Of a stretch of DNA of 64,000 bases, positions 2,489 through 31,470 are shown piece after piece. The DNA comes from a virus. Lineage: Duplodnaviria > Caudoviricetes. The notes below the pieces were generated by a model that worked only from the letters and a program-made list of their open reading frames with translations, had not been told where the DNA came from and searched no databases. The stretch is taken from IMG/VR virus record IMGVR_UViG_3300029288_000012, positions 1,620 through 65,619 of that record, one strand, 5' to 3'. Position numbers and translations under genes: made by a program. The stretch's first letter is position 1; the number at the start of each line of letters is the position of its first letter.

Positions 2489-2547
2489 ATTGTAGCTTAT
2501 TCTATAAGCATGTCAAGGTACAGAAGATTAGAATAAGATTAGAGTTT
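2489..2547 (-). promoter_or_regulatory. Cassette promoter TTGACA-16-TACAAT with upstream TCTAATCT x2
   Basis: -35 at 2511-2516, -10 at 2489-2494, repeats at 2525-2532 and 2536-2543. Confidence 0.8.
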
Positions 2548-2571
2548 GGGGCCAGGGGCCAGGTGTTTGGG

Positions 2572-2778
2572 TCAGCGACGGTAGTACCGCCGTTGATTTC
2601 GGCGATATCGTTTCAGGGCTAGCATGGCGTGATAATGCCGGCGCTTTTCATCTGAAGCGAATCGTTCATAGTAGACGAAGATGGCGGTTCGGATAAGCCC
2701 GACAAGGATTCGAATCAGGATCGGTGCGAGAATAATTACGATCGCTATCAAGAGGAAGGTCTTTTCAGTAGCTTGCAT
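2572..2778 (-). CDS. Small membrane protein with basic tail
   Basis: One long hydrophobic segment, Arg-rich C-terminus; start at MQATEK is inferred. Confidence 0.55.
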   Translation of the reverse strand: MQATEKTFLLIAIVIILAPILIRILVGLIRTAIFVYYERFASDEKRRHYHAMLALKRYRRNQRRYYRR

Positions 2779-3199
2779 AGGTCCTCGAATTATGGAATTT
2801 CTTTTCTTGTTCGGATGGCGAAAGATATCGGTATAACTGCGAGAAAGGAACGATATCTTTGAATTCAACGATTATGAGGTCTTGCGTTCCAACGGAGCCT
2901 TTCAGGTCCAGTTTGCCGCGTCTTGGCATGGTCGCTGCAATATAGGTATTCGCCTTCGTTCCTGTGACGTGAAAGGCGATCCCCCCAGGCCAATTGCCAT
3001 ACGAAGCCGTATGGCTAACATTCGCAAACCAATCATCAAAAGCGCTAAAGGCGAGAATATCATCTAGTTCTTCCTGAAGCAAGGTCGCCTGATTTCGAAG
3101 AAGAAAGCAACAGCCAACCGCCTTAGCCCGTGCCGAGCGGCCAGAGCCCCATTTTGCAAGTGTGCGCGCCCTTGATTCCGGAGTGCTAGTGTTTGACAT
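2765..3199 (-). CDS. Hypothetical protein
   Basis: ORF tightly coupled to both neighbours; start uncertain. Confidence 0.55.
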   Translation of the reverse strand: MSNTSTPESRARTLAKWGSGRSARAKAVGCCFLLRNQATLLQEELDDILAFSAFDDWFANVSHTASYGNWPGGIAFHVTGTKANTYIAATMPRRGKLDLKGSVGTQDLIIVEFKDIVPFSQLYRYLSPSEQEKKFHNSRTYASY

Positions 3200-3428
3200 C
3201 GGTTTCAGTTGAGCCAATCCAGATATGATTTAGCATCACGCTTTTAGACGGTCGAACGGTGACGCCGGCGATAAGGGTTTCTTCTCCGAGAGCGCCTGGA
3301 TTTACAAAGGCAGAATTCGGTCGAACGGCATACTTCGAAGCGAAGTAGGTCGCGGCTTCGACGATCGCAGCCTGAAGATCACGACCGGATTGATAAGCCC
3401 AGAGCATACCGCTAGTCATAGTTGGCAT
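3186..3428 (-). CDS. Hypothetical protein
   Basis: RBS AAGGA before MPTMTSG; overlaps neighbours. Confidence 0.6.
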   Translation of the reverse strand: MPTMTSGMLWAYQSGRDLQAAIVEAATYFASKYAVRPNSAFVNPGALGEETLIAGVTVRPSKSVMLNHIWIGSTETDVKH

Positions 3429-3801
3429 TGTACTTTCGTCCTTTCTGCATCTTGCGCCGCCTTTGAGCGTGCCGCCTGGCAGCAGCAGCGTCAACCCAAT
3501 TTCGAATACTTGACATGCCGAATGTAAAGCCGTGGTAGGGCTGGCGGCTTATTATCTTTTCGGCGAATTCGACATAGTATTCAAGAGCGGCTACCTCACC
3601 TACAGCGACGACTAATATCGCGAGGGCGAGTTGTTTCGGAGCCTCGCCAAAGAAGCCCCAATCAAATACGGGAGCGTGTTTCGCAAGGTCATTACGCAAA
3701 GGTAAAGGATAGGTTCTTGCTACCTCGTAGCCTCGAATTTCTTTGACTATAACTTCGTTCTTTTCCGGTGTTACGCCGCGAGTAGCGGCGATTGATCTCA
3801 T
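3412..3801 (-). CDS. DUF6166-like protein
   Basis: RNDLAKHAPVFDWGFFGEAPKQLALAIL resembles the DUF6166 pattern (from memory). Confidence 0.6.
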   Translation of the reverse strand: MRSIAATRGVTPEKNEVIVKEIRGYEVARTYPLPLRNDLAKHAPVFDWGFFGEAPKQLALAILVVAVGEVAALEYYVEFAEKIISRQPYHGFTFGMSSIRNWVDAAAARRHAQRRRKMQKGRKYNANYD

Positions 3802-3819
3802 AAAGTTTTACTCCAAAGC

Positions 3820-3853
3820 TTGCCGGGAGCGGTTTCAAGGCCGCTCCCGGCAA
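3820..3853 (-). terminator. Stem-loop downstream of the SSB-like gene
   Basis: TTGCCGGGAGCGG / CCGCTCCCGGCAA 13-bp stem. Confidence 0.55.
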
Positions 3854-4812: not shown

Positions 4813-5049
4813 TTATTGGCGGTCAAGTGCGAGCGCGTTGATACGATCAATCATTGCATTCAGAGCAACGGGATCGACCTCTTCTCGGCGGGCTGGATGG
4901 ACGTAAGCGATAAGCAATTGAATGACTTCAGATTGCCCAACCTTACGACCGACGACGCGAGTCAAATATTCGGCATCGGATTCGATATCCTGTTTCATGC
5001 CATCGGTAGCGGTAGCAAGAATGTTTTTAGTAAGATTACGATTCTTCAT
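4813..5049 (-). CDS. Ribbon-helix-helix-like DNA-binding protein
   Basis: Alternating strand TKNILATAT, helix DGMKQDIESDAEYL, then VG-QSEVIQLLI helix; RBS AAGGAG before MKNRN. Confidence 0.5.
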   Translation of the reverse strand: MKNRNLTKNILATATDGMKQDIESDAEYLTRVVGRKVGQSEVIQLLIAYVHPARREEVDPVALNAMIDRINALALDRQ

Positions 5050-5082
5050 TCGTGTTCTGTCTCCTTGTAGGTTTCTAGTTTG

Positions 5083-5110
5083 ATTATACACGACCCTTAT
5101 AGCTTGTCAA
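5083..5110 (-). promoter_or_regulatory. Promoter TTGACA-16-TATAAT for the RHH-like gene
   Basis: -35 at 5105-5110, -10 at 5083-5088; degenerate spacer palindrome. Confidence 0.7.
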
Positions 5111-6031: not shown

Positions 6032-6234
6032 TGGCGTTCCTCTTCTAGCATAGCGATCGCCTTTTCGAGAATGGCAACGCGTTCGCTGTGCGGTAAGGCG
6101 GCGGCAACCGCAGCAGCGCGAGCGTTTTCAAGTGTGCGCAAAAGCCCGGCTTTATCATAGGTTGTTTCGCAAAACGGAGCCCAGGCGATTGACACTAGGC
6201 CACCTTCAAGCAATTTGATTTGATAGTCTTTCAT
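6028..6234 (-). CDS. Hypothetical protein
   Basis: ATGA-type coupling with both neighbours. Confidence 0.65.
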   Translation of the reverse strand: MKDYQIKLLEGGLVSIAWAPFCETTYDKAGLLRTLENARAAAVAAALPHSERVAILEKAIAMLEEERQ

Positions 6235-6527
6235 CGGTCCTCCTTCTGTTTGTTCTGTTCTTGAATGGCGTAGGTTGTTATGATATCACTATTCTTATAG
6301 ATAGTCAATTTATCCGGGTCACGTGCCCAGGCGATATCGGGCAGAGCATTGTCGCGATAGGTCGCTGCAAGATAGGCGAGAACACGCCTGGCGATCGCCT
6401 TTGTCGGGGCGGTCAAAAAGACGTGTTCGGTCGGACCTTCGTCCGTCCCAATTTGAGCCGTGGCGATTATGGCGTATTTATCCTGAGGATTAATACGCAT
6501 AGGGAAGGGTGGATTGATCTTTGGCAT
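6231..6527 (-). CDS. Hypothetical protein
   Basis: Coupled ORF in operon. Confidence 0.65.
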   Translation of the reverse strand: MPKINPPFPMRINPQDKYAIIATAQIGTDEGPTEHVFLTAPTKAIARRVLAYLAATYRDNALPDIAWARDPDKLTIYKNSDIITTYAIQEQNKQKEDR

Positions 6528-6847: not shown

Positions 6848-7072
6848 TTATCTTGATTTCTGTTCTTCAATAAACCGTTCTTCAACAACGGCGACGACCT
6901 TCGCAGAGAACATGAAGTTCGGATTCTTGTCAGCAGTATTGTATTTGACGACGCGACCGTCAGGGCGCATCGTAAACATGAAGCCCTTGTTTTCGGGCAG
7001 CTTCAGAAAGTCTCCCAGGGTCATAACTTCCTGGGTATCGACCGTGATGATTGCTACTTCGTAAAATGACAT
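6848..7072 (-). CDS. Hypothetical protein, first gene of a cassette
   Basis: RBS AGGAG and cassette promoter upstream. Confidence 0.7.
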   Translation of the reverse strand: MSFYEVAIITVDTQEVMTLGDFLKLPENKGFMFTMRPDGRVVKYNTADKNPNFMFSAKVVAVVEERFIEEQKSR

Positions 7073-7112
7073 AGTTCCTGTCTCCTGCGTTTGGGTTGAC
7101 TTGACTGTCTTT

Positions 7113-7170
7113 ATTGTAGCTTATCCTGATAGAATGTCAAGCGATTTAGATTAGAGAAAGATTAGAGTTT
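7113..7170 (-). promoter_or_regulatory. Cassette promoter TTGACA-16-TACAAT with TCTAATCT x2
   Basis: -35 at 7135-7140, -10 at 7113-7118, repeats at 7148-7155 and 7159-7166. Confidence 0.8.
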
Positions 7171-7192: not shown

Positions 7193-7849
7193 TCACCACC
7201 ATCTGAAACCGAAAGCCTTCATCATGTCGAAGGCGAAGTCGCCGCGACCGGTCTTGACCATCTTCGCCCGTTCCTGCTTGAAGGCCTCAGGATTGATACG
7301 AGCGGTGACGCCGGTCTCGATAGCATTTCGGATATCGTCCTGGCTATCAGCAGCGATCACGAAGCCGAAGCGAACAGCGAAGCGCACAGCCCGCACAGCC
7401 CGCATCGGGTCAGCTACGATAGTCGAGAAGCCCTGGCAGAAGCGAATGACGCCGTTCTGCATGTCAGAGATGGCCTGGGGGTGAGCAACGATTTCGCCGG
7501 TTTCGCAGTTCATTGCAACGGCGTTGATCGTGATGTCGCGAGCGGTCATGTCAGCTTCAATCGTTTCGCCGCGAAAGGTCGCGACTTCGATCGCCTGGTG
7601 AGCAACGATCACGCGGATAATCCCGAATTTCTTGCCGCCGGTGTCGCGAGTCTGTCCGGGGAAGATCGCTTCAATCTGTTCGATCGTGGCGTTCGTGGCG
7701 ATATCGATATCGTTCGCTTCAGTACCGAAGAAGACAGTATCACGAACGAAACCGCCTACGATGAAAGCCTGGAAGCCGGCTTCAACGATAGGGGCGGCTA
7801 CTGCCTGGGCGATGAATGGGACGTGGTTTGTTTGGTTCGTGTTCGTCAT
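7193..7849 (-). CDS. Class II tRNA nucleotidyltransferase / poly(A) polymerase family protein, truncated
   Basis: VGGFVRD, NDIDIAT (DxD), EVATFR, RDITINA and DPMRAVRAVRF motifs. Confidence 0.85.
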   Translation of the reverse strand: MTNTNQTNHVPFIAQAVAAPIVEAGFQAFIVGGFVRDTVFFGTEANDIDIATNATIEQIEAIFPGQTRDTGGKKFGIIRVIVAHQAIEVATFRGETIEADMTARDITINAVAMNCETGEIVAHPQAISDMQNGVIRFCQGFSTIVADPMRAVRAVRFAVRFGFVIAADSQDDIRNAIETGVTARINPEAFKQERAKMVKTGRGDFAFDMMKAFGFRWW

Positions 7850-7888
7850 TTCGGTCTCCTGATTTCTGACTGACTGTCTTATAGTTCT

Positions 7889-7948
7889 ATTATAGCCCCA
7901 TTCTTATAGAATTACAAGGGTAGAAAGATTAGAATTAGATTAGAGTTT
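7889..7948 (-). promoter_or_regulatory. Cassette promoter TTGTAA-17-TATAAT with TCTAATCT x2
   Basis: -35 at 7912-7917, -10 at 7889-7894, repeats at 7926-7933 and 7937-7944. Confidence 0.8.
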
Positions 7949-7957
7949 TACTCATTC

Positions 7958-8010: not shown

Positions 8011-8039
8011 TTGACTCTTCTCGCAGCTAATCATATAAT
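8011..8039 (+). promoter_or_regulatory. Promoter TTGACT-17-TATAAT for replication genes
   Basis: Near-consensus boxes 40 nt upstream of ATG 8079. Confidence 0.75.
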
Positions 8040-8078
8040 GATTTAGACCTATTATTCACGGAGACAGAAGGAGCCGAT

Positions 8079-9071
8079 ATGAATCAATCAAAAGATACAG
8101 TTGCCCAGGTATCCGGGTTTACCCCGGTATTTGACGTTCTGATAGAAGCCTACGGGCAATCAACCGCGCTGGTATTCGGAGCAATCTGGCGCTATTGTCA
8201 AATGTCAGATGGGTGCTGCAAAGCTAGCCAAGAGACGATCGCAAAGCGAACCGGCTACAGCCGGCAAACAGTAAACGCGGCGGTAAAGTTACTTGTCGCA
8301 GATGGCTATCTAATGGCGGTCCGGCCGGCCCAAAGCGGTCAAGTCGTGACTCTCTATGACACCGGCAAAGTGCGATTCAAGGTCGTGATCACCGCCCAGC
8401 CTGGCCCGGATAAGCCTGACTTCGCAGCCCGGCAAGACGTGATTGAATCCCCCAAACCACCAGCGAGACGGGCGGCGAGCGAACCTGTCAAATCAGTTGA
8501 CAGGGGGTGTCAAACTAGTTTACAGGGGGGTGTAAAGCTACTTGACACTAAGATAGATTCTAATATACAAGAAGATATCTATCCTGGCACTTTCGTGCCA
8601 GTAGAGACTGAAGGCATTCAAGAGACTTGTCAAGAGCAAGACACTTCTCTTGAAGTTGAGCCAGCTACACGCCGGCCGAGCGTTTGGCTTGATATCGCCC
8701 GTGATGGTCGACCCGTCAAGAATCAATCGGCCTATGATGCGATTGAAAGATACGAGCAAAAGCAAAACGCGAACGGCGGTCTTGACCTATACCCGTCATG
8801 GTTGCCTGAAAGATATCAAGTTTTCTATGCGATATTCGTTCGCGTGACCGGTATTCAGCCAATCGGGAACCGAGAGCAAAAGTCATGGATCGCAGCTATG
8901 CAAAGACTTCTCGAAGCGAATATCTCACCAGATATCTTCGAGCGAGCCTTGCGCAAGTTACGGTCAGATGGTGTGACCGTTGCTACGCCCTTCAGCGTGT
9001 TCAACACGGCGCGCGCCCTCGCTGGCAGCAAAAGCGCGGGTCCAGGTTTCGTACCATCCGAAGAGTATTAG
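8079..9071 (+). CDS. Phage replication initiator (N-terminal HTH, DnaD/lambda O-like layout)
   Basis: CKASQETIAKRTGYSRQTVNAAVKLL HTH; lies directly upstream of the helicase; internal repeats. Confidence 0.75.
   Translation: MNQSKDTVAQVSGFTPVFDVLIEAYGQSTALVFGAIWRYCQMSDGCCKASQETIAKRTGYSRQTVNAAVKLLVADGYLMAVRPAQSGQVVTLYDTGKVRFKVVITAQPGPDKPDFAARQDVIESPKPPARRAASEPVKSVDRGCQTSLQGGVKLLDTKIDSNIQEDIYPGTFVPVETEGIQETCQEQDTSLEVEPATRRPSVWLDIARDGRPVKNQSAYDAIERYEQKQNANGGLDLYPSWLPERYQVFYAIFVRVTGIQPIGNREQKSWIAAMQRLLEANISPDIFERALRKLRSDGVTVATPFSVFNTARALAGSKSAGPGFVPSEEY
8484..8547. repeat. Iteron-like repeats, candidate replication origin
   Basis: TTGACA-G5-TGTCAA (8497-8513) and TTTACA-G6-TGTAAA (8519-8536), 22 bp apart; CCTGTCAA/TTGACAGG inverted repeat. 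Confidence 0.55.
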
Positions 9072-9074: not shown

Positions 9075-9104
9075 TTGACTCTTTGTCGGATAATGCTATA
9101 ATAA
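9075..9104 (+). promoter_or_regulatory. Promoter TTGACT-18-TATAAT for the helicase
   Basis: Boxes read directly; RBS AGGAG follows. Confidence 0.65.
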
Positions 9105-9131
9105 TCAAAGCATTCAAAACAGGAGCCAGAT

Positions 9132-10445
9132 ATGACAGATCAATCCATGACTGAAGCCCACCTGCTAAAGCAGCGGCAATTAGAACAAACGTTCGCGGGT
9201 CTTTGTTTTATTGACCCGGAGCGCGCCACGCGTGAAGCGATCGACCTGAAGCCCGACATGATATCGGATATCAAGGTCAAGGCGTTTTGGACCTGCCTTC
9301 TAGGCAATGCCCAGGGAGCAAGCCAGGACGCGGATTATTCAGCCCTCGCTTATCAGGCGGCTATCGCAAGCGAAAGTTTAGGCGATCTTCTTGACTGGTC
9401 TTCGACAATGGCTAGCAGCCTACGGATAAAAGAATTTGCCGATGAAATTCGCCGGCGTTCGTTCCTGTCAAGGCAGATAGACCCGGCTATTGCTAGGATC
9501 GTTGGCCTGAGGCAGAAAGGCGATCTAGAAGGCGTGATGGCAGAATTGTCTTCAGCCGTGAATCTGCAAGCGCCGCTAGAAGTCGCTACAAGCGATATGA
9601 CTGATATCGCCCTGCAATTCAATTCGCAAGTCACAGCGACAACACCTTCAACCGTCACCACCGGGATTAGCCCAATGGACCGAGGACTCGGCGGTCTTAC
9701 GCGCGGCGATCTGACAATCCTCGCAGCGCCGCCTTCAATGGGTAAAACAACGTTAGCCCTTCAGATAGCAGCCAACGTTGCGCGGCAAGGGCAAAGAGTC
9801 TTGTATGTATCAGCGCAGATGCGCGCCGTGACCCTGTTCGCTAAATTGGCCTGCGGGAGCATGGCGATCCCATACCGAGACGTGTTAGCCGGCCGCCTGT
9901 CAGATGCGCAGAAAGCCGCCCTGATAGACAACGGATTGAAGATCGCAGAAGCCCTTCAGCTTCTTGCTATCGACGACACGCCAGAACAAGACATTGATGT
10001 CGTGATGCGCAAGGCGCGCCAAACACAGCCCGCCCTAATCGTGCTTGATATGATGCGCGACCTACGGATCGCCGGCAGCTATACGAGCGTGCAAGAGCAA
10101 GTCCGTTCACTCATGAAACGAAGTCAAACTATCGCGAAGACAACCAACGCGGCGGTATTGGCCCTGGTGCATGTCGGGCGCCAAGTCGGAGAGCGCCACC
10201 GTGCCGGAACAGATTATAATAAAAGCGTGAGCATGAATGACATTGCCGATTCTTCAGCAATTGAAAAGGACGCCGATACTGTTCTCATGATGGACTCTGC
10301 TGCATACTTTGACCCGACGCAAGCCGCCGCTAAAACGCTGGATATCGACCTTTGGGTCGAGAAATTCAGGGCTGGCCCTCGCCAGATGAAGATGAATCTC
10401 CGATTGAATTTAGACCGACAATTATTCGCCGGTCGCGAGGACTAG
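9132..10445 (+). CDS. dnaB: DnaB-like replicative helicase
   Basis: TTGISPMDRGLGGL, Walker A APPSMGKTT, S-x-IEKDAD and KFRAGP motifs. Confidence 0.85.
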   Translation: MTDQSMTEAHLLKQRQLEQTFAGLCFIDPERATREAIDLKPDMISDIKVKAFWTCLLGNAQGASQDADYSALAYQAAIASESLGDLLDWSSTMASSLRIKEFADEIRRRSFLSRQIDPAIARIVGLRQKGDLEGVMAELSSAVNLQAPLEVATSDMTDIALQFNSQVTATTPSTVTTGISPMDRGLGGLTRGDLTILAAPPSMGKTTLALQIAANVARQGQRVLYVSAQMRAVTLFAKLACGSMAIPYRDVLAGRLSDAQKAALIDNGLKIAEALQLLAIDDTPEQDIDVVMRKARQTQPALIVLDMMRDLRIAGSYTSVQEQVRSLMKRSQTIAKTTNAAVLALVHVGRQVGERHRAGTDYNKSVSMNDIADSSAIEKDADTVLMMDSAAYFDPTQAAAKTLDIDLWVEKFRAGPRQMKMNLRLNLDRQLFAGRED

Positions 10446-10688: not shown

Positions 10689-11216
10689 ATGCCAGATGGC
10701 AAAACCCATAATCGCATAACAGTAGCGGCCGCTCCCTTTGTTGGATCGGCCGCGTTTGCGATTAGCGGCAGCTTGACGGTAGGATTATGCGCCGTCGCCG
10801 GTTGTATCACCGGCATACCGATCACGCCAGATCTTGACCAGCCGCGCGGTCGCGGCCTTTGGCGTGTTATCTGGTGGCCTTATGCAAAGGCAATGAAACA
10901 CCGAGAACGATTCTCGCATGACCCTGTTCTCGGATGGGCTGGGCGCATTCTTTACCTTCTCGTTTTATTCTCGCCATTGATTCTGTTCGCATTATGGCTA
11001 GCAGATCAAGCCGGCCTTCCAATCAACCTGACACCTGGCCCCCATACGTTTAGCTATCTTCTCGGCCTGTTCATAGCGAATCTGCTGCATAGTTTAGCAG
11101 ATGTAATCGTATCAGAACTGAAACAAGCGAAGAAGAAGACAAAGCCCAGGAAGAAGCACTCTGGCCAGAGCAAGGCAAAACGAACGAAAAGCCGAAAAGC
11201 CCTTGACATTCTATAA
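10689..11216 (+). CDS. DUF2227-like metal-binding membrane protein
   Basis: MPDGKTH, PDLD, IWWPY and HRERFSH-P motifs with TM segments. Confidence 0.75.
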   Translation: MPDGKTHNRITVAAAPFVGSAAFAISGSLTVGLCAVAGCITGIPITPDLDQPRGRGLWRVIWWPYAKAMKHRERFSHDPVLGWAGRILYLLVLFSPLILFALWLADQAGLPINLTPGPHTFSYLLGLFIANLLHSLADVIVSELKQAKKKTKPRKKHSGQSKAKRTKSRKALDIL

Positions 11217-11231
11217 GCGACCTGCTATCAT
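11203..11231 (+). promoter_or_regulatory. Cassette-type promoter TTGACA-17-TATCAT
   Basis: TTGACATTCTATAAG spacer as in other copies. Confidence 0.7.
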
Positions 11232-11266
11232 AATGGCAGATAAATCAATCAGCAAAGGAGACAGAG

Positions 11267-11770
11267 ATGACATTCCAAGATTATATTGATGCTGCAAAGG
11301 CAGCGAAGGCAGCGAAAGACAAGGCGAACACCGAACGCGCATGGCAGAAGATCAAGGCGCTTGTACCGGATGAATTCATCCCATTCACAAACGAAGACGA
11401 AGTCGGCGGGATGAAATGCTTTATCGTGAGCGTGCCTGGAGCGGTAGCGCCGATTCGGGTAGCGGACGTCGAAGGGTATGACGTTCCTGAGGTTGACCCT
11501 CGTTACCACCTGCCTGATTGGGGATCGGACTCTACCGCCCGCTTTTATGACTTTGACGCGGCGCTTCTCGCTGCAATGGAAGGCGTTAACCGGCGATCAA
11601 GTGAAGCCCGCCGCGAAGAGATGGCGCGGCGCGAAAAGGTTGATTCTGCAATTGTCGAATACACAGAACGCGGCGGCTTCATGAATCTGGCGATTGCCGC
11701 CCTGTATACAATCCGGGAATTGACTCGTCAGCTTCGCGTCCTGAATGACTCACGCGGCAATTACGACTAA
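11267..11770 (+). CDS. Hypothetical protein
   Basis: RBS AAGGAG, own promoter. Confidence 0.75.
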   Translation: MTFQDYIDAAKAAKAAKDKANTERAWQKIKALVPDEFIPFTNEDEVGGMKCFIVSVPGAVAPIRVADVEGYDVPEVDPRYHLPDWGSDSTARFYDFDAALLAAMEGVNRRSSEARREEMARREKVDSAIVEYTERGGFMNLAIAALYTIRELTRQLRVLNDSRGNYD

Positions 11771-12236: not shown

Positions 12237-12300
12237 TGGCGTTTCATCCTTTCGAGGTTGATTCGATTATACCTTGACAGCGGCCAGAACGATTCGATTC

Positions 12301-12355
12301 TCTAATCAAACTCTAATCTTCTACCCCTTGACATTCTATCAGAATAGCCTATAAT
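12301..12355 (+). promoter_or_regulatory. Cassette promoter TTGACA-16-TATAAT with TCTAATC x2
   Basis: -35 at 12328-12333, -10 at 12350-12355, perfect ATTCT-ATC-AGAAT spacer. Confidence 0.8.
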
Positions 12356-13961: not shown

Positions 13962-13987
13962 ATTGGCGATCCGCTGGGCCAGGTCCA

Positions 13988-14046
13988 AAACTCTAATCTT
14001 TCTCTAATCTTCAGCTATTGACACGCTATAAGAATAGGGATATACT
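13988..14046 (+). promoter_or_regulatory. Cassette promoter TTGACA-17-TATACT with TCTAATCT x2
   Basis: -35 at 14018-14023, -10 at 14041-14046. Confidence 0.8.
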
Positions 14047-16135: not shown

Positions 16136-16153
16136 TCAAGGAGACAGTAACCA

Positions 16154-17507: not shown

Positions 17508-17541
17508 AGAGCCAGATCAATCACCTATGGAGACAGAGCGA

Positions 17542-18709: not shown

Positions 18710-18712
18710 AAA

Positions 18713-19020: not shown

Positions 19021-19091
19021 AAAACTCTAATCTAATTCTAATCTTTCTTTGCCCTAAATCGCTTGACATTCTTATAGTATGCGCGTATAAT
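19021..19091 (+). promoter_or_regulatory. Cassette promoter TTGACA-17-TATAAT with TCTAATCT x2
   Basis: -35 at 19063-19068, -10 at 19086-19091. Confidence 0.85.
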
Positions 19092-19132
19092 AAGAGAGTA
19101 AGGTCAATCAGTCAAACAACCAGGAGCCAGAA

Positions 19133-19465
19133 ATGACTAGCACAAACCAAACCCCCAGCAGCAAGAAAGACGGTACTCGGAAGCGCGAAGCCTACAACGG
19201 CGACGTTGTAACGGTTTGCTTCACCTTCGAAGCCGCCGTTCGCTTTTCTGAAGAGATGGTCGCCGGCGGTCATGATGGCGAATGGGTAGAGTATGACTTC
19301 ACCGGCTTCCCCGAGGAACAGGCCAAGTGGGACGCCTTTCAGGACGCCCGCAGAGCCGCCCAGGCCGCGCAAGAGCCATGGTTCGCAGAGGATTGGAGCA
19401 ATCAGCCTACCGAGACAAACACCTGGGCGCCAGAGCCTGACTTCTCATTCAACGGCGACTTCTAG
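19133..19465 (+). CDS. Hypothetical acidic protein
   Basis: RBS AGGAG; N-terminus MTSTNQTP. Confidence 0.75.
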   Translation: MTSTNQTPSSKKDGTRKREAYNGDVVTVCFTFEAAVRFSEEMVAGGHDGEWVEYDFTGFPEEQAKWDAFQDARRAAQAAQEPWFAEDWSNQPTETNTWAPEPDFSFNGDF

Positions 19466-19847: not shown

Positions 19848-20161
19848 AGGATTATTCAGGCAATCGACCGCCAGATCGCCGCCTTGAAGACGGGCGCGGC
19901 GTATGGCACTTCGTTGAAACCGGCGTCATTGTTGACGCCGGGCCAGGTCCCCTGGGTCAGGATGGGGGCGAGTACCTCACCGACGATCAATTCAATGAAC
20001 AGATTGAATCGCTGCAAGGCCACCCTCGGATGATCAACAGCCTGAAGAAGCGCGCCACGCGTGTTATTCGGGAATACGACATGATCTTCGAATCGATCGC
20101 GCAAGAGCGGATCGCCTATGGCAGAGCCTACCGCTGCAACGAAACTTATAAGCGCGCTTGA
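19844..20161 (+). CDS. Hypothetical protein
   Basis: ATGA coupling. Confidence 0.65.
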   Translation: MKDYSGNRPPDRRLEDGRGVWHFVETGVIVDAGPGPLGQDGGEYLTDDQFNEQIESLQGHPRMINSLKKRATRVIREYDMIFESIAQERIAYGRAYRCNETYKRA

Positions 20162-20186
20162 CACGCTATAAGCATGTCGGTATAAT
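20158..20186 (+). promoter_or_regulatory. Cassette-type promoter TTGACA-17-TATAAT (no upstream repeat)
   Basis: Spacer ATAAGCATGTCGG shared with the 23224 and 25734 copies. Confidence 0.8.
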
Positions 20187-20219
20187 GAAATCAGCAACTA
20201 ATCAAAACAGGAGCCAGAG

Positions 20220-20549
20220 ATGAAGAAACAAAAGCAGAAACAGAATACAGAAGAAATTATACTGAAAGAAATCATTCCAAACCGAGGTATCGGCGGCGAA
20301 GAATATCATGCGATTCTCGCTTCTCGAATGACGGAGCAAGACTTTTCAATTCGTAACCAGTTCGGAACCTACGTCCGAATCGGCGGATCGCCACAGCTTT
20401 ATCGGGTTATGAAGGTTTATCAAGGTATGGTCGTTTTATTCGCCGATACCGGCGAATGCGCTCCAATCATGGTGACGCCGGGAGAAATTACAGAGCCTTT
20501 CGCGGTAAACGAAAACGAAACGAAATGGGGATTCGTTCGCTATGGGTAA
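20220..20549 (+). CDS. Hypothetical protein
   Basis: RBS AGGAG. Confidence 0.7.
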   Translation: MKKQKQKQNTEEIILKEIIPNRGIGGEEYHAILASRMTEQDFSIRNQFGTYVRIGGSPQLYRVMKVYQGMVVLFADTGECAPIMVTPGEITEPFAVNENETKWGFVRYG

Positions 20550-21112: not shown

Positions 21113-21126
21113 CTGATTCTGTTAGA

Positions 21127-21184
21127 AACTCTAATCTAATTCTAATCTTCAGCTATTGACATTCTTATAGTATGCGCGTATAAT
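21127..21184 (+). promoter_or_regulatory. Cassette promoter TTGACA-17-TATAAT with TCTAATCT x2
   Basis: -35 at 21156-21161, -10 at 21179-21184. Confidence 0.85.
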
Positions 21185-21229
21185 AAGAGTATAAGAAAGT
21201 CAGTCAGAAATCAAACAGGAGCCAGAGCC

Positions 21230-21556
21230 ATGACCAGCAAAACCCAAACCCAAACCACCGCCTTCGCCTTCGTTGAAACCGGACCCGACCAGGTCTTCAA
21301 GGTCGAATTCGACACGACCACCGGCGAGGTCGTGAGCCAGTTCGGAGTAGACAGCTTCGGCGAAGAAACCGAAACCCCTGTCACCGTCAAGGCGGTTTGC
21401 CCCACCTGCGGCGGGACTCAGTTCTTCTCAGCCTTTGAGGGCGAGAAGGGCGAAGAAACCGAAGTTTGCCGCTGCCAAGCCTGCAAGAGCGAAGTCAAGG
21501 CCGCCGACGTTGACTTCGGCTTCGTTCCTGACTTTGACGGTCAGGCCGACTTCTAA
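21230..21556 (+). CDS. Acidic Zn-ribbon protein
   Basis: CPTC...CQAC. Confidence 0.75.
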   Translation: MTSKTQTQTTAFAFVETGPDQVFKVEFDTTTGEVVSQFGVDSFGEETETPVTVKAVCPTCGGTQFFSAFEGEKGEETEVCRCQACKSEVKAADVDFGFVPDFDGQADF

Positions 21557-22076: not shown

Positions 22077-22529
22077 ATGGATATCAAATACCTACCACTT
22101 ATGAACGATCAACAGATATACGCCCTGAAGCCTGGGGATCGCATCAACCTCGGCGCAGATGGGGTCGCCATTGTCGGGAAGCGAGCGCGGCCGAATGCGT
22201 CAGAGCCACTTCGCTGGCCAGTATGGGTCAGGAAGAATCGCGAATTGCAAGTCTTGCCGGCCTATATGTTACGCCGGGCGAGCCTGGACCTCACGCCGGC
22301 TTTATACTGTAGCCTATGTTACAGAATGGCGCCGCTCGGCTATATTCGATACTACGAACGCGAAAAGCACGGCGGCGCGATATCGCTTGACCCGGTTTGC
22401 GATTATTGCGCCCTGTTACTCGAAGATCAATACGTCGCCTGGCTAAACGCGAATATAAAAGACAGATCGCAGCGAGAAGCCCTGTTAGCCGAATGGCGAA
22501 AGCGCCGGATGGGAGCGAACAAACTCTAA
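22077..22529 (+). CDS. Hypothetical protein with Zn finger
   Basis: CSLC...CDYC; RBS AAGGA before MDIKY. Confidence 0.65.
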   Translation: MDIKYLPLMNDQQIYALKPGDRINLGADGVAIVGKRARPNASEPLRWPVWVRKNRELQVLPAYMLRRASLDLTPALYCSLCYRMAPLGYIRYYEREKHGGAISLDPVCDYCALLLEDQYVAWLNANIKDRSQREALLAEWRKRRMGANKL

Positions 22530-22579
22530 TCTAATTCTAATCTAAACCTATTGCCTTTCTTATAGGATATCACTATAAT
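22521..22579 (+). promoter_or_regulatory. Cassette promoter TTGCCT-17-TATAAT with TCTAATCT x2
   Basis: -35 at 22551-22556, -10 at 22574-22579. Confidence 0.75.
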
Positions 22580-22610
22580 ATATATAAGAAAGGCAATCAG
22601 GAGCCAGAAG

Positions 22611-22835
22611 ATGACAAGCACAAACCAAACCCCCAAATACCAGATCCCCGAAGTCGGGCAGTTCGACCAGATGAGCGAAGCCCGCGAAACCGTTCGCATG
22701 AGCCTGTTCAATCAGATAGTCGAAGCGACCGGCGAATTCACCGCCGAAGCCTGGACCGCCGCCAAAGCCGCAGCGCGAACAGCCCTGCAAGGTCGAAGCG
22801 ACAGCATGAGCCAGATCGTTGCCATGACTTTCTAG
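22611..22835 (+). CDS. Hypothetical protein
   Basis: RBS AGGAG; N-terminus MTSTNQTP. Confidence 0.75.
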   Translation: MTSTNQTPKYQIPEVGQFDQMSEARETVRMSLFNQIVEATGEFTAEAWTAAKAAARTALQGRSDSMSQIVAMTF

Positions 22836-24178: not shown

Positions 24179-24238
24179 AAACTCTAATCTAATTCTAATC
24201 TTTCTGCTATTGACATTCTTATAGTGTGGGCGTATAAT
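24179..24238 (+). promoter_or_regulatory. Cassette promoter TTGACA-17-TATAAT with TCTAATCT x2
   Basis: -35 at 24210-24215, -10 at 24233-24238. Confidence 0.85.
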
Positions 24239-24275
24239 ATAGATAGTTAAGTCATTCGGAAACAGGAGATCAGAA

Positions 24276-24581
24276 ATGCCCACAAACAGCCAGCCCTTTA
24301 CAACCAGCTTCAGCGGAGACATCGACAGCTACTACCTGAATAAAGCCAATCGGGCGGCGCTCAATAATCTACCGGCCGGCCTGTCTCGTTACGTAACCAG
24401 TTACGCCTTCGACCTGAAGTCGACCTGGGACTGCCCCTTCATGAGCGACGACGACTTTGTCTCCATCGTTCTCTCTGATGCTGCGGTACTCTCTGACTTG
24501 ACCGTCCAGATGAACAGCGACAGCCAGGCGACATGGGACCTGTTCTGCGACAAGCGCAAGAACCCTGACTTTTACGACTAA
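24276..24581 (+). CDS. Hypothetical acidic protein
   Basis: Single-gene cassette: promoter, RBS, terminator. Confidence 0.75.
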   Translation: MPTNSQPFTTSFSGDIDSYYLNKANRAALNNLPAGLSRYVTSYAFDLKSTWDCPFMSDDDFVSIVLSDAAVLSDLTVQMNSDSQATWDLFCDKRKNPDFYD

Positions 24582-24599
24582 AATCATCCGCTGCAACAA

Positions 24600-24633
24600 G
24601 CCCGACCTTCTGAAGGTCGGGCTATTTTATTTT
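24600..24633 (+). terminator. Intrinsic terminator
   Basis: GCCCGACCTT / AAGGTCGGGC followed by TATTTTATTTT. Confidence 0.75.
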
Positions 24634-24654
24634 AGGCAGCAGCTGGAGCCAACG

Positions 24655-24715
24655 AAAACTCTAATCTAATTCTAATCTTTCTGCTATTGACATTCTATAA
24701 GGATGCCGATATAAT
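24655..24715 (+). promoter_or_regulatory. Cassette promoter TTGACA-17-TATAAT with TCTAATCT x2
   Basis: -35 at 24687-24692, -10 at 24710-24715; 47 nt identical to the 25702 copy. Confidence 0.85.
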
Positions 24716-24767
24716 ATAGATAGTTAAGTCAGTCAGAAATCAACCTCGAAACCCAGGAGCCAACGAA

Positions 24768-25010
24768 ATGACCAACACCGAAAAAACCTACGAAGAAGAA
24801 TACGAAGAAATGACCGGCGAAGCCTACCGCCCGGAAGACGCCGAAATGGCCCAGATCAGAGAAGACGTCGCCGAGTTCGAAGAAGAATGCGAACAAGAAT
24901 GCGAACACGAATTCGAATTCGAGTATGAAATGCCAGATGGCGAATACCAACGCTGCCGCTTTTGCGGCGAGGGACACGCCTTCTACTATCCATATTCACG
25001 TGAAGACTAG
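24768..25010 (+). CDS. Very acidic (Glu-rich) small protein with Cys/His motifs
   Basis: EEEYEE, EFEEECEQECEHEF, CRFC. Confidence 0.7.
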   Translation: MTNTEKTYEEEYEEMTGEAYRPEDAEMAQIREDVAEFEEECEQECEHEFEFEYEMPDGEYQRCRFCGEGHAFYYPYSRED

Positions 25011-25642: not shown

Positions 25643-25676
25643 GAAAGAGAGGTCTGGATATCCAGACCTCTCTTTC
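25643..25676 (+). terminator. 34-bp perfect palindrome, terminator-like
   Basis: GAAAGAGAGGTCTGGATATCCAGACCTCTCTTTC followed by a pyrimidine run. Confidence 0.7.
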
Positions 25677-25701
25677 GTTCTCTTCGTATGGGGCCAGGTC
25701 C

Positions 25702-25762
25702 AAAACTCTAATCTAATTCTAATCTTTCTGCTATTGACATTCTATAAGCATGTCGGTATAAT
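25702..25762 (+). promoter_or_regulatory. Cassette promoter TTGACA-17-TATAAT with TCTAATCT x2
   Basis: -35 at 25734-25739, -10 at 25757-25762. Confidence 0.85.
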
Positions 25763-25810
25763 ATAGATAGTTAAGTCAGTCAGTCAAACCAATTTCTTCA
25801 GGAGCCAGAA

Positions 25811-26221
25811 ATGAAAACCTCTTCCATCACCTTCAGCAACAAAGTCGACAACAGCCGCCAACAGTCCTTCATAGCGAAGGCCATGCGCTTCATCTCTGAC
25901 GCCCAGGTCACCAGCGAAGGCAACGGGACATTCACGGTCGGCGGTCATTCGGTCTCGGTCGAAGGTAGCCATTCGACCTGCGATTGCGAGTTTCGGACCT
26001 TCAATCCTGAGAGCGAATGCTCTCATTCAATCGCCGCCCGGATCGCCAGCGGCCAGAACGTCATCTCGGTTTCGCCTTTCGCCGAAGTTCCTGAAGGCTT
26101 CCATCCCATGTTCCGGATGGCTTCAGGATCGGTCTTCGGGATCGTCTCAGATATCAGCATCGCCATCGACAATTCGTCTATCGCCGTGACCGACGAAGTT
26201 ACCGCCAACATGAACGCATAA
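25811..26221 (+). CDS. SWIM Zn-finger protein
   Basis: TCDCEF...CSHSIA (CxC...CxH). Confidence 0.7.
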   Translation: MKTSSITFSNKVDNSRQQSFIAKAMRFISDAQVTSEGNGTFTVGGHSVSVEGSHSTCDCEFRTFNPESECSHSIAARIASGQNVISVSPFAEVPEGFHPMFRMASGSVFGIVSDISIAIDNSSIAVTDEVTANMNA

Positions 26222-26326
26222 TCAACCATAGGCCAGGGAGCGAAGGGGGCGCTCCCTGCAAGCCCTTGACAGATCAAGGGCAGCGAGCCTAAAATCAAGT
26301 CAGTCAGAACAGAACAGGAACAGAAG

Positions 26327-26578
26327 ATGAATACAATCAAATGCCAATCATGCCAGGGTCAAGGGTTTGTCATGCAAGGCGAGGACTCGAATCCTTGTCT
26401 CGCTTGCAATTCGACGGGCGAGGTCCAGACGGGTCGCCAAACCGGTCCGACCGTGCCGGTCGTCGTTCGGTCGCCTGAAACGGCGGTCCACTTCAACGCC
26501 GGCGCGCATTACGAAGCGCGCCTGAATTTCAAGATCGCCGGGATCGCCAAGAATCGCCGGCGACAGAAAGTGAATTAG
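26327..26578 (+). CDS. Small Zn-finger protein (DnaJ-type CxxCxGxG)
   Basis: CQSCQGQG...CLACNSTG. Confidence 0.7.
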   Translation: MNTIKCQSCQGQGFVMQGEDSNPCLACNSTGEVQTGRQTGPTVPVVVRSPETAVHFNAGAHYEARLNFKIAGIAKNRRRQKVN

Positions 26579-26871: not shown

Positions 26872-26900
26872 TTGACATTCTATCAGAATGCCGATATAAT
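26872..26900 (+). promoter_or_regulatory. Cassette-type promoter TTGACA-17-TATAAT (no upstream repeat)
   Basis: Perfect ATTCT-ATC-AGAAT spacer. Confidence 0.8.
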
Positions 26901-26935
26901 CAGAACAGATCAAGTCATTCAAACAGGAGCCAGAA

Positions 26936-27130
26936 ATGTATAAACCAGCAGTACCGTCTAAATCTAGTTTATTAGAAGACCTTGCGAAACACCTTCGCAA
27001 GCTCGGCCTCTCCGATCCGAATGTCGAAGAGGTTATGGAGCAAGCGACCAGCTTCTGGGGCAACGCGAGAATCGTCAAAGTCACCACCTGGACCTATGAA
27101 CAAGTTTGCGAATACCTGGATGAGGATTAG
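26936..27130 (+). CDS. Hypothetical protein
   Basis: RBS AGGAG. Confidence 0.7.
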   Translation: MYKPAVPSKSSLLEDLAKHLRKLGLSDPNVEEVMEQATSFWGNARIVKVTTWTYEQVCEYLDED

Positions 27131-29854: not shown

Positions 29855-30246
29855 TTTACCCCCACCTGCCTGATAAGGCGCTTGATATGTCGGAGTTTCG
29901 CAGCGTCCGAGCGGTTAGATTGAAGCACGAAAGCAAAGTTATCAAGTAAGTGAATCAGGGTGGTGAGATTCTTCAAGTTTCTGCCATGCTCCACCTGCAA
30001 GAATTTGTATTGCATTTCATAGAAAGCGATTCTTTCAGAGGGATCGTTTTCTTCTTCCTCTCTCGCAGCTTCTGGAAGTATCGCCTTGATCGTGGCGTTC
30101 GTCTCATCAATCAGGGCGGTTATAACGGATCGCCCTCCTTCGGAGAGAATAGACTCGAATGCGCCGTCGAGCGATTGAAGCCGTTCCAGGGCGGCAGCGA
30201 AGCCTAGTCGGTATTGTACCTCGTCGCGTTTTGTTGTTTCAGCCAT
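29851..30246 (-). CDS. Hypothetical coiled-coil protein
   Basis: RBS AAGGA before MAETT; overlaps the MTase start. Confidence 0.6.
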   Translation of the reverse strand: MAETTKRDEVQYRLGFAAALERLQSLDGAFESILSEGGRSVITALIDETNATIKAILPEAAREEEENDPSERIAFYEMQYKFLQVEHGRNLKNLTTLIHLLDNFAFVLQSNRSDAAKLRHIKRLIRQVGVK

Positions 30247-30260
30247 GTAGAATTTCCTTT

Positions 30261-30479
30261 CTATGCGTTCTGGTGTTTCTTCGAATGATAAGCGAGAACG
30301 GATCGCATGGCGTGTATCTGGCGGTCCATCCGGTCGAAGAATTCTTCGTTGGTTTCGAAGGTGTCTTTCGTGATAAAGGGATACCGGGAAGGATCGCATT
30401 CAATCGCGTCAATCAAGGAGCGGCGGGCGACCATGTAGCTATAATGTTTCGCAGCAGCAGATATAGGGTGGTAGGGCAT
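30261..30479 (-). CDS. Hypothetical protein
   Basis: TAATG coupling. Confidence 0.6.
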   Translation of the reverse strand: MPYHPISAAAKHYSYMVARRSLIDAIECDPSRYPFITKDTFETNEEFFDRMDRQIHAMRSVLAYHSKKHQNA

Positions 30480-30967
30480 TAGTTGTTTCCTTTCGGATAA
30501 ATCTTCGAATAATCAGGAACATAACCGACCGTAGCGGTCGATAATCCTGCCATGCCGCTTCCTTGCGCAAACAAGCGCACGCCGGCCGGCAGCAGTTCTA
30601 GGCGTTCTTCGTAACCGCGTTTCGCCAGGGTTGAAGCCTTGCGAGGGCGGTATGGAAGGAAGTCGCCGGTAAAGTCGCCGCGTTCGTCACAGAGCGCCCA
30701 ACGAAGCCCGAATCGAGTAAACACAGCACGAGCATTCGCCTTGCGCCCTTCAAGGGTATAGAGAACGGGGAATTCGACAAGCCCGTCGGAGTTGTCGAGT
30801 TTTGCTAATAGTTCATAGACACGAGCGGTTAGGTCGGTACAAACATATGACAGGAACATACTATCAAGGTCCTGTTCGACCATCCGATCTGCATTATCGG
30901 CGAGTTTCTTTTTTGCAAGTGCGGTATAGTCGGTTCCTGGGACGTATCGATAAAAGCCGTTACTCAT
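30479..30967 (-). CDS. Hypothetical protein
   Basis: TAATG coupling. Confidence 0.7.
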   Translation of the reverse strand: MSNGFYRYVPGTDYTALAKKKLADNADRMVEQDLDSMFLSYVCTDLTARVYELLAKLDNSDGLVEFPVLYTLEGRKANARAVFTRFGLRWALCDERGDFTGDFLPYRPRKASTLAKRGYEERLELLPAGVRLFAQGSGMAGLSTATVGYVPDYSKIYPKGNN

Positions 30968-31275
30968 TATTTATGATCCTCTTGTTTTCGGCGTGCTAGT
31001 TCTGCCTCTAATTCATCAATGGAAGGGTTGACGCGAAACCTATAATCTAACAGTTGATCGAAGTCAGCGGACACCTGCGCTTCTGCCATATCGCCTAAAA
31101 TTTCGAGACGTAAAGGCGTTTCGTATTTTACGATCGCATCAATTACGCTGGCCTTTTCAGAAAGGCTAATAAACCCTTTCCGCTTTAGCATAGCGAGCGT
31201 GTTTTCGATATGGCGCGTTGACATGTCGCTTATGGCTATATCTGTTCCGTCGCGCATTCTCCAAAGTCCGTTCAT
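30967..31275 (-). CDS. Conserved-looking phage hypothetical protein
   Basis: WRMRDG...ISDMSTRHIENTL motif; RBS AGGAG. Confidence 0.65.
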   Translation of the reverse strand: MNGLWRMRDGTDIAISDMSTRHIENTLAMLKRKGFISLSEKASVIDAIVKYETPLRLEILGDMAEAQVSADFDQLLDYRFRVNPSIDELEAELARRKQEDHK

Positions 31276-31422
31276 TTCGCCTGTCTCCTGTGTTTCGGTT
31301 TGTTGTAGGGATCGCCCTCGTTTTGTTATAGTCCCTTGCAAGTCATTCGGTAGGTAAACCCATCACGAGTCTTTTAGCAAGAAGGACGCTTCCTTCGAGA
31401 ACGATCCCTGCAACCTGCTTTT

Positions 31423-31470
31423 ATTATAGGCCATCCTGATAGAATGTCAAGGGATAGAAGATTAGAGTTT
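31423..31470 (-). promoter_or_regulatory. Cassette-type promoter TTGACA-16-TATAAT with one TCTAATCT
   Basis: -35 at 31445-31450, -10 at 31423-31428. Confidence 0.75.

What the first reader, a model, noticed from the sequence alone, without database searches (positions are those of the whole stretch)
2489..31470. About 20 copies of one composite promoter element partition the accessory region into cassettes
Seen: a ~100-bp module, AAACTCTAATCTAATTCTAATCT...TTGACA-16/17-TATAAT...AGTCAGTCAGAAATC...AGGAGCCAGA-ATG, on both strands. Copies with the upstream repeat: 2525, 7148, 7926, 12301, 13992, 16752, 18717, 19026, 21130, 22525, 23187, 24183, 24660, 25707 and a single-repeat copy at 31459. Core-only copies: 5105, 11203, 16102, 20158, 26872. 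Copies share up to 47 identical nt (24655 vs 25702) and are mosaic: 23182 has the upstream part of 16748 but the spacer of 20158/25702. Many are preceded by a terminator, giving terminator-promoter-1 to 5 small genes units. Inference: an integron-like but integrase-free gene-shuffling platform driven by homologous recombination between promoter repeats, carrying host-takeover or anti-defence genes. Comparable repeats flank variable cassettes in T4-like phages.
Basis: partly seen in the sequence, partly recalled or inferred. Interest (0 to 1): 0.8.

Follow-up and report, generated by a model that had tools for sequence, protein, structure and literature searches.

The report
Phage early promoter-cassette array
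A 65.6-kb uncultured phage drives its small, mostly unknown early genes from about 25 host-type promoters, 15 of which share one repeated ~100-base control module. Related metagenome contigs have gained or lost whole gene cassettes by recombination inside these modules, much like the PeSL cassettes known from T4-type phages.

Summary
All 20 listed copies exist and point towards their genes. The 19-nt upstream repeat occurs 13 times against 0.02 expected by chance. Twelve promoters are perfect TTGACA-16/17-TATAAT.

Each module has these parts:
- An optional terminator hairpin (8 of 22).
- Two TCTAATCT units 11 bp apart.
- A linker of 7/8 or 18 nt.
- A consensus promoter with a palindromic spacer.
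- A conserved leader and ribosome site.
- In at least five cassettes, the first eight codons (MTSTNQTP).

The modules split both divergent early arms into units of 1-6 genes. Of 56 early proteins, 51 match no PHROG family.

Three metagenome contigs are about 93% identical to the window. They show three indels. Two are whole cassettes flanked by modules, and there the window carries a single chimeric module. The third indel joins by microhomology.

The genome has no detectable integrase, resolvase, RecT, ERF or YqaJ. It is therefore a PeSL-like terminator/promoter cassette array outside the T4 group, not an integron analogue. Host-takeover or anti-defence content is untested.

The same upstream element, in the same register, occurs in unrelated phage-like contigs, which points to a shared trans-acting factor.

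This scan has already reported several PeSL-like arrays on other phage DNA. The finding is a new member of a known kind, of moderate-to-low interest.

The parts
2454..2547 (-). Module with two upstream units, linker 8, spacer 16; drives 2196-2456 and downstream genes (Dam, GH25 endolysin)
5047..5110 (-). Core-only perfect consensus promoter with SD and ATG; drives 4813-5049 and five further genes
6232..6308 (-). Core-only promoter (10 of 12) inside the left arm
7070..7170 (-). Module with two units, linker 7; preceded by a strong hairpin at 7166-7210 (dG -29.7)
7847..7949 (-). Module with two units, linker 8, perfect spacer palindrome; drives the PolyA_pol/CCA-type nucleotidyltransferase gene 7193-7849
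8011..8081 (+). Core-only promoter of the winged-helix replication initiator gene 8079-9071
9075..9134 (+). Core-only promoter of the DnaB-like helicase gene 9132-10445
11203..11269 (+). Core-only promoter with the conserved spacer
12297..12355 (+). Module (first unit degenerate), perfect promoter, long leader before 12485
13987..14046 (+). Module with two units, linker 7; hairpin at 13920-13961 upstream; no RBS-ATG within 75 nt
16102..16156 (+). Core-only promoter directly preceded by a 10-bp x5 tandem repeat (16051-16100)
16747..16863 (+). Module with two units, linker 18; terminator-like hairpin at 16702-16746
17479..17544 (+). Core-only promoter (11 of 12)
18712..18772 (+). Module with two units; transcript has no RBS-ATG and ends at the hairpin 18954-18989
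19021..19135 (+). Module with two units, linker 18; first gene starts MTSTNQTP
20158..20222 (+). Core-only perfect promoter sharing the spacer of 23224 and 25734
21126..21232 (+). Module with two units, linker 7; intrinsic terminator at 21075-21120 upstream
22521..22613 (+). Module with two units, linker 7; the stop codon of the upstream gene lies in the first unit; right edge of the 680-bp indel against L037
23182..23301 (+). Module with two units, linker 18 (its L037 orthologue has linker 8)
24179..24278 (+). Module with two units, linker 8
24599..24770 (+). Terminator hairpin (24599-24623) plus module. A chimera of the two modules that flank an extra 68-aa-gene cassette in L037; the crossover lies in a window of about 13 nt
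   Evidence: alignment A3
25643..25813 (+). Hairpin (25643-25676) plus module. A chimera of the L037 left module and the L036 right module, which flank about 2.1 kb of extra cassettes in the relatives; the crossover lies in a 30-nt identical stretch
   Evidence: alignment A4
26266..26329 (+). Core-only promoter (11 of 12, spacer 18) with an AGTC-repeat leader
26872..26938 (+). Core-only perfect promoter with a perfect spacer palindrome
31423..31470 (-). Single-unit module with a perfect promoter; hairpin at 31527-31556 upstream; heads the operon that ends in the C5 methyltransferase gene 28877-29854

Best explanation
This is an array of PeSL-like composite early-expression modules in a lytic-type phage with a 65.6-kb genome and direct terminal repeats.

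Each module is a ready-made expression unit with these parts:
- Sometimes a terminator hairpin that ends the previous unit.
- Two TCTAATCT units 11 bp apart, held one or two helical turns upstream of the -35 box.
- A consensus housekeeping-sigma promoter whose spacer carries an ATTCT-N3-AGAAT palindrome.
- A conserved leader, a strong Shine-Dalgarno site and the start codon.
- In several cassettes, the first eight codons.

Host RNA polymerase would fire all of them immediately after infection. That gives about 25 short, insulated transcription units of 1-6 genes on two divergent arms. The upstream units most likely act as an UP-like or activator-binding element. The spacer palindrome is most likely an operator for later shut-off.

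The modules are 60-120-bp dispersed repeats that share exact runs of 26-47 nt. They are therefore also preferred substrates for homologous recombination and gene conversion. This deletes, inserts or replaces whole cassettes without breaking genes.

Shown here: the repeats, their consensus, orientation and phasing, and module-flanked cassette indels with chimeric modules in relatives.

Inferred: promoter activity, the factor that binds the upstream units, and the recombination machinery.
For: - Enrichment and perfect consensus of the promoters.
- Co-orientation with genes and restriction to window 2.4-31.5 kb, the early arms around the replication genes.
- Linker lengths are only 7, 8 or 18 nt. 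Units start 15/16, 26/27 or 37 nt before the -35 box.
- Strong hairpins lie upstream of 8 of 22 promoters.
- Module segments are mosaic, with a different nearest neighbour for each segment.
- Orthologous modules diverge more than their flanks (9.6% against 5.9%), while paralogous modules share long identical runs. An orthologous module also changed its linker from 18 to 8 nt.
- L037 has an extra promoter-gene-terminator cassette between two direct repeats of about 60 bp. The window has one hybrid copy there.
- L037 and L036 carry about 2.1 kb of extra cassettes between two modules, and the window has one hybrid module there.
- Of 56 early proteins, 51 have no PHROG match, as in PeSL 'ORFan' regions.
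- The same upstream element in the same register occurs in the unrelated contigs L031/L034 and L032.
- The PeSL mechanism is described in PMC2839356.
Against: - Only three short related contigs (3.0-8.2 kb) were available, and all are metagenome assemblies. The window is the shorter version in both module-flanked events, so a repeat-mediated assembly skip cannot be fully excluded. The exact repeats at those junctions are only 26-30 nt long.
- The link between L037 and L036 rests on a 19-nt end overlap between contigs from different samples.
- One of the three indels is a microhomology junction, not a module-module event.
- Only about a third of the modules have a convincing terminator hairpin.
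- No phage recombinase was recognised.
- There are no transcription data.
Confidence: 0.7

Rival explanations
1. The modules are purely regulatory repeats. Their similarity is kept by selection for binding RNA polymerase and one or two regulators. They have no special role in gene turnover. The cassette differences from the relatives are incidental or are assembly artefacts.
For: The unrelated contigs L031 and L032 carry the same upstream element at the same distance from the -35 box, which argues for functional constraint. Phasing is strict. The relatives are few and are metagenome assemblies, and one indel is not module-mediated.
Against: Two independent cassette indels have both ends inside modules. 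Their SNP patterns make the window's module a left/right chimera. The exact repeats at these junctions are only 26-30 nt, shorter than the usual final assembly k-mers. The mosaic segment pattern and the excess divergence of orthologous modules fit ongoing exchange.
Confidence: 0.2
2. The TCTAATCT units and the ATTCT-N3-AGAAT spacer palindrome are operators of a dedicated DNA-binding regulator, either phage-encoded or a hijacked host factor. It switches the whole early regulon on or off. They are not an UP-like contact for the polymerase alpha subunit. This reading is compatible with the recombination role.
For: - Two conserved 8-mers with a variable 3-nt spacer look like a protein site more than an A/T-rich UP element.
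- The palindrome overlaps the -35 box and spacer, where a repressor would block the polymerase.
- The promoters of the replication genes lack the units, which suggests two regulatory classes.
- The half-site ATTCT recurs in both elements.
Against: No candidate regulator was identified. The element appears in unrelated contigs that share no detectable protein with this phage, although those contigs are short. The exact pattern is almost absent from 185,579 species genomes, which gives no support for a host regulon.
Confidence: 0.35
3. This is a site-specific, integron-like cassette platform. The repeats are recombination sites for a dedicated recombinase.
Against: There is no tyrosine or serine recombinase in the complete genome. 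The crossover regions sit at different places within the module. Cassettes carry their own promoters. There are no attC-like folded sites.
Confidence: 0.02

Closest known systems
PeSLs (promoter-early stem-loops) of T4-type phages RB49/phi1, T4/PST and KVP40/nt-1 (Arbiol et al. 2010, PMC2839356; Comeau et al. 2014, PMC4122927)
   Same: - Composite repeats of about 100 bp, each with a sigma-70-consensus early promoter, an A/T-rich upstream part, a stem-loop terminator, an SD site and a start codon.
- Concentrated in variable regions in front of ORFans.
- Indels between close relatives are flanked by the repeats, and a single chimeric repeat is left behind.
   Different: - The host genome is a 65.6-kb phage, not a T4-type one. 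Its large terminase is closest to Streptomyces and Actinoplanes phages at 41%.
- The hairpin is upstream of the promoter and present in only about a third of copies. In PeSLs it usually lies within the promoter.
- The upstream part is a defined pair of 8-mers in helical phase, not just an A/T-rich stretch.
- Homology can extend eight codons into the gene.
- Mini-circles were not tested.
SPO1 host-takeover module (Stewart et al. 1998, as summarised in PMC6873191)
   Same: A dense block of small early genes in many short operons, each with a strong housekeeping-sigma promoter and a strong ribosome site. The host here is probably Gram-positive, judging from the GH25 endolysin, the LL-H-type holin and the BclA_C domain.
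   Different: There is no sequence similarity and no evidence that these proteins shut off host functions. SPO1 promoters are not described as one repeated recombining module.
Integrons
   Same: Arrays of small accessory gene cassettes that are gained and lost as units.
   Different: There is no integrase and there are no attI/attC sites. Every cassette has its own promoter. Exchange is by general homology at variable points within the repeat.
UP elements and class I activator sites of strong bacterial and phage promoters (established knowledge, not tested here)
   Same: The element occupies about -43 to -61. It moves by exactly one helical turn in three copies. It is optional for an otherwise consensus promoter.
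   Different: The sequence is not the A/T-tract UP consensus. It is two conserved 8-mers. Whether it binds the alpha subunit or another protein is unknown.

Membership tests
PeSL-type terminator/promoter cassettes | Dispersed repeat of about 100 bp containing a sigma-70-consensus early promoter | tested here: met
   Twelve perfect and about 13 near-perfect promoters; repeat families of 60-111 nt
PeSL-type terminator/promoter cassettes | Stem-loop (terminator or attenuator) as part of the motif | tested here: inconclusive
   Strong hairpin upstream of 8 of 22 promoters, with a T-run in 4-5 of them; none inside the promoter; generic terminator scan not enriched
PeSL-type terminator/promoter cassettes | [quoted passage not shown] | tested here: met
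   TCTAATCT pair upstream; conserved AGGAGCCAGA-ATG
PeSL-type terminator/promoter cassettes | Located in variable regions in front of ORFans | tested here: met
   51 of 56 early proteins have no PHROG match; 27 of 30 larger ones on the right arm have no Pfam match
PeSL-type terminator/promoter cassettes | Indels between close relatives bounded by the repeats, with a chimeric repeat at the empty site | tested here: met
   Two of three indels against L037/L036; small sample of metagenome assemblies
PeSL-type terminator/promoter cassettes | Excised mini-circles | not testable with these tools
   Needs reads or PCR
PeSL-type terminator/promoter cassettes | Carried by a T4-type myovirus | tested here: not met
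   65.6-kb genome; terminase, portal and capsid proteins are distant from T4 types. It therefore works like a PeSL array but lies outside the group in which PeSLs were defined
Integron | IntI-type tyrosine recombinase next to the array | tested here: not met
   No PF00589 or PF00239 match in the complete genome; the positive controls matched
Integron | Promoterless cassettes ending in attC, expressed from one Pc promoter | tested here: not met
   Each unit has its own consensus promoter
UP element (alpha-CTD contact) | Stimulates transcription with holoenzyme alone and depends on the alpha C-terminal domain | not testable with these tools
   Only position and phasing are consistent

The most novel reading that the evidence does not exclude
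The phased TCTAATCT pair is a previously undescribed, portable upstream promoter element. It would be read by the transcription machinery, or by an abundant DNA-binding protein, of an uncultured and probably Gram-positive host lineage. Unrelated phages either pass it around or evolve it convergently. Support for this: a 23-nt stretch identical to the module at window 16752 occurs in the tRNA-rich, 38% GC contig L031, and arrays in the same register occur in the 40% GC contig L032. Together with the shared eight-codon start (MTSTNQTP), the module would be a complete transcription-plus-translation 'plug' into which unrelated genes are recombined in frame.
Probability: 0.25. Interest if true: 0.55.

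Novelty: new member of a known kind. Interest (0 to 1): 0.3.

Why it matters
This finding extends PeSL-type shuffling by regulatory cassettes from large T4-type myoviruses to a mid-sized, unrelated phage of an unsampled lineage. It also provides a clean natural example, with chimeric modules at two empty sites.

For annotation, it gives about 25 early transcription units and marks about 55 ORFans as immediate-early genes worth screening for host-directed functions.

The phased 8-mer pair, shared with unrelated phage contigs, is a testable handle on promoter recognition in an uncultured host.

Tried and rejected
- No similarity in cultured phages: megablast of window 12-27 kb and blastn of one module against INPHARED found nothing.
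- IMG/VR scans: the exact 23-mer gave no match. The looser pattern gave 12 single hits, none related to the window.
- Large terminase relatives in IMG/VR are at most 52% identical and have no comparable promoter array.
- The DnaB query found no relatives.
- Genome collection: one doubtful hit in a 67% GC MAG, so no prophage or host lead.
- A homologue search with one cassette protein found only two clusters, on contigs of about 1 kb.
- Cassette duplication was rejected: all-against-all BLASTP finds no paralogy among the first genes beyond the eight N-terminal residues.
- A recombinase role for the 295-aa and 299-aa left-arm proteins was not supported. They have no PDB or Pfam match, and there is only a weak ASCH-like lead.
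- Rfam found nothing in the window, and there are no tRNAs.
- I compared the repeats from memory with known operators (Fur, Zur, PerR, CodY, ARG box, PhoP, WalR, SinR, CtsR). None fits. This was a recollection, not a test.
- L035, a 64% GC bacterial MarR-HlyD-MacB locus with the same element, may be a chance hit of the pattern.
Full report
**What the window is.** The window is bases 1620-65619 of a 65,619-bp IMG/VR virus record with a 127-bp direct terminal repeat, rated complete.
- A rough gene call gives about 100 genes. A left arm (window 1-7.9 kb) is read on the minus strand. A right arm (8.0-28.4 kb) is read on the plus strand. The rest (28.9-64 kb) is on the minus strand.
- Recognisable genes include large terminase, portal, capsid/protease, DnaB-like helicase and a winged-helix replication initiator.
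- Others are a GH25 endolysin, Dam, DUF6166, a PolyA_pol-type nucleotidyltransferase head domain and DUF2227.
- Also present are a C5 methyltransferase, an LL-H-type holin, a BclA_C-domain protein and four N6/N4 methyltransferases.
- The nearest cultured terminases are from Streptomyces and Actinoplanes phages at 41%. The nearest endolysins are from Geobacillus, Clostridium and Paenibacillus phages.
- A Gram-positive host is therefore likely but not shown.

**Observation.** The 19-nt upstream repeat occurs 13 times at up to 3 mismatches, against 0.02 expected.
- Twelve promoters are perfect TTGACA-16/17-TATAAT, and about 13 more have one or two mismatches.
- Every copy points towards the gene that follows it.
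- All copies lie between 2.4 and 31.5 kb, apart from a weak look-alike at 52350.
- The 47-nt identity between 24655 and 25702 is exact.
- Repeat families reach 82-111 nt at 84-96% identity.

**Anatomy of the module, 5' to 3'.**
1. In 8 of 22 cases there is a strong hairpin (dG -19 to -30), and 4-5 of these have a T-run. The generic terminator scan is not enriched.
2. A GGCCAGG word is often present, sometimes doubled.
3. Next come AAAC and two TCTAATCT units separated by a variable 3 nt, so the units are 11 bp apart.
4. The linker is 7 nt (4 copies), 8 nt (7 copies) or 18 nt (3 copies), with no other length. The 18-nt forms are the 7-nt forms plus an 11-nt insert, so the units stay on the same face of the helix.
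5. The promoter follows. Its spacer begins with an ATTCT-N3-AGAAT palindrome, perfect at 7917, 12328 and 26872 and one or two mismatches off elsewhere.
6. The leader has AGTC repeats, then AGGAGCCAGA and ATG.
7. In at least five cassettes the first eight codons are shared (MTSTNQTP and close variants). The proteins behind them are otherwise unrelated, and one is the nucleotidyltransferase.

The promoters of the replication genes (8011, 9075) and several others lack the upstream units. This suggests two promoter classes.

**Cassettes.** The promoters define about 25 units of 1-6 genes.
- Three units have no ribosome site and start codon near the promoter: 12328, 14018 and 18744.
- Of 56 early proteins, 51 match no PHROG at 1e-4, and the five matching families have no known function. 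None matches PADLOC.
- Pfam is nearly blank on the right arm.
- Nothing supports or excludes host-takeover or anti-defence roles.

**Relatives and breakpoints.** One metagenome scan with the element plus TTGACA returned three contigs 92-95% identical to the window:
- L033 corresponds to window 1097-4591 and is colinear.
- L036 corresponds to window 25702-28511.
- L037 corresponds to window 19236-25786.

Three structural differences were found.
- Event 1. Window 21835-22514 (two ORFs) is absent from L037. The junction shows a short GCGA microhomology. It lies at the end of the upstream gene and about 10 nt before module 22525, so it is not a module-module event.
- Event 2. L037 has an extra unit (promoter, 68-aa gene, terminator) between two direct repeats of about 60 bp, each made of a terminator tail plus the upstream element. 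The window has one copy there. Its left SNPs match the upstream repeat and its right SNPs match the downstream repeat. The crossover falls within about 13 nt.
- Event 3. After module 25707, L037 continues from the leader into about 1.9 kb of DNA absent from the window, which includes another module.
  - The last 19 nt of L037 equal the first 19 nt of L036.
  - L036 then runs through a small gene, a hairpin and a module into the orthologue of the window's gene at 25811.
  - The window's single module is L037-like up to the spacer and L036-like from the leader on. The crossover lies in a 30-nt identical stretch.

This is the pattern drawn for PeSLs in RB49/phi1. In addition, orthologous modules diverge more than their flanks (9.6% against 5.9%). 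One module changed its linker from 18 to 8 nt and another swapped its linker type. Within the window, modules are mosaics of each other. All of this fits repeated exchange among modules.

**The upstream element elsewhere.** The same scan also hit contigs with no protein similarity to the window.
- L031/L034 (38% GC) has eight tRNA genes and a PolA-type exonuclease. It carries a 23-nt stretch identical to the window's element at 16752, followed by a 7-nt linker and a perfect promoter.
- L032 (40% GC) has small ORFs and more than ten consensus promoters on both strands. These are preceded by ladders of TCTAAT-like units.
- In L032 the units start 15/16, 25-27 and 36 nt before the -35 box. In the window the registers are the same: 15/16, 26/27 and 37 nt.
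- The pattern is nearly absent from 185,579 species genomes.

The element is therefore a functional site shared by unrelated phage-like genomes. Either a common host factor reads it, or the regulatory cassette itself moves between phages. It is not only a recombination repeat.

**Mechanism.** Shown here: the repeats, their consensus, orientation and phasing, and the chimeric modules at two empty sites.

Inferred:
- Host housekeeping holoenzyme starts at each module.
- The phased units raise promoter strength or bind an activator.
- The palindrome is an operator for shut-off.
- General homologous recombination between modules deletes, inserts and swaps cassettes.

The machinery for that recombination is unknown. 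No integrase, resolvase, RecT, ERF or YqaJ is detectable in the genome.

**Comparison with known systems.** The closest known system is the PeSL of T4-type phages. Five of its defining features are met. The stem-loop feature is met only in part. Mini-circles could not be tested. The host genome is not T4-type. The SPO1 host-takeover module is a functional analogue for the gene layout. Integron membership fails on every feature tested.

**Caveats.** All relatives are short metagenome assemblies, and the window is the shorter form in both module-flanked events.

**Verdict.** It is wrong to call the system integron-like, and its claim about gene function is unsupported. This scan has already reported several PeSL-like arrays in other phages. 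This is a new member of a known kind, with two modestly new details: the phased 8-mer pair shared across unrelated contigs, and the shared eight-codon start.

Noticed in passing
window 8486-8547: A 22-23-bp repeat in 2.8 copies (iteron-like) lies inside the winged-helix replication initiator gene 8079-9071. This is a likely replication origin, as in lambda-type initiator genes.
   Followed up: no
window 16051-16100: A perfect 10-bp tandem repeat in 5 copies spans the stop codon of gene 15373-16062 and ends one base before the -35 box of the core-only promoter 16102. It is a different periodic upstream element at a promoter that lacks the TCTAATCT units.
   Followed up: no
window, whole (for example 2550, 2557, 13977, 16738, 19012, 23150, 23172, 25692): GGCCAGG occurs 31 times against 7.2 expected, 22 of them on the plus strand. 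It often lies 5-15 nt upstream of a module and is sometimes doubled. At the minus-strand module 2516 it keeps the plus-strand orientation. Its function is unknown; a methylase site or a Chi-like word are guesses.
   Followed up: partly
window 12356-12484, 14047-14316, 18773-18989: Three full modules are followed by 130-270 nt without a ribosome site and start codon, one of them ending at a textbook terminator. These are candidate early non-coding RNAs or long leaders. There is no Rfam match.
   Followed up: partly
window 52345-56567, 28877-29854, 1545-2126: Four tandem N6/N4 DNA methyltransferase paralogues (45% identity between two of them), plus a C5 methyltransferase and a Dam-like enzyme. 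This is an unusually large methylation arsenal for a 65-kb phage.
   Followed up: no
L032 about 60-140, 1930-2016 and 2540-2627 (minus strand): Three promoters in the unrelated 40% GC contig are each followed by a similar leader of about 30 nt (ACCCAACCGACGGGAGGG-like). This may be a small RNA or leader family.
   Followed up: no
L010, L015, L019 (IMG/VR contigs): Three 11-bp-phased TCTAATCT-like units lie upstream of a sequence that resembles a T7-type phage-polymerase promoter, followed by GGGAGG and ATG. This may be coincidence.
   Followed up: no
L035 3887-3919: A 64% GC bacterial contig has the same 8-mer pair, a 7-nt linker and a TTGACA-17-TATACT promoter in front of a MarR-HlyD-MacB efflux operon. 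It could be a MarR operator or a chance match of the search pattern.
   Followed up: partly
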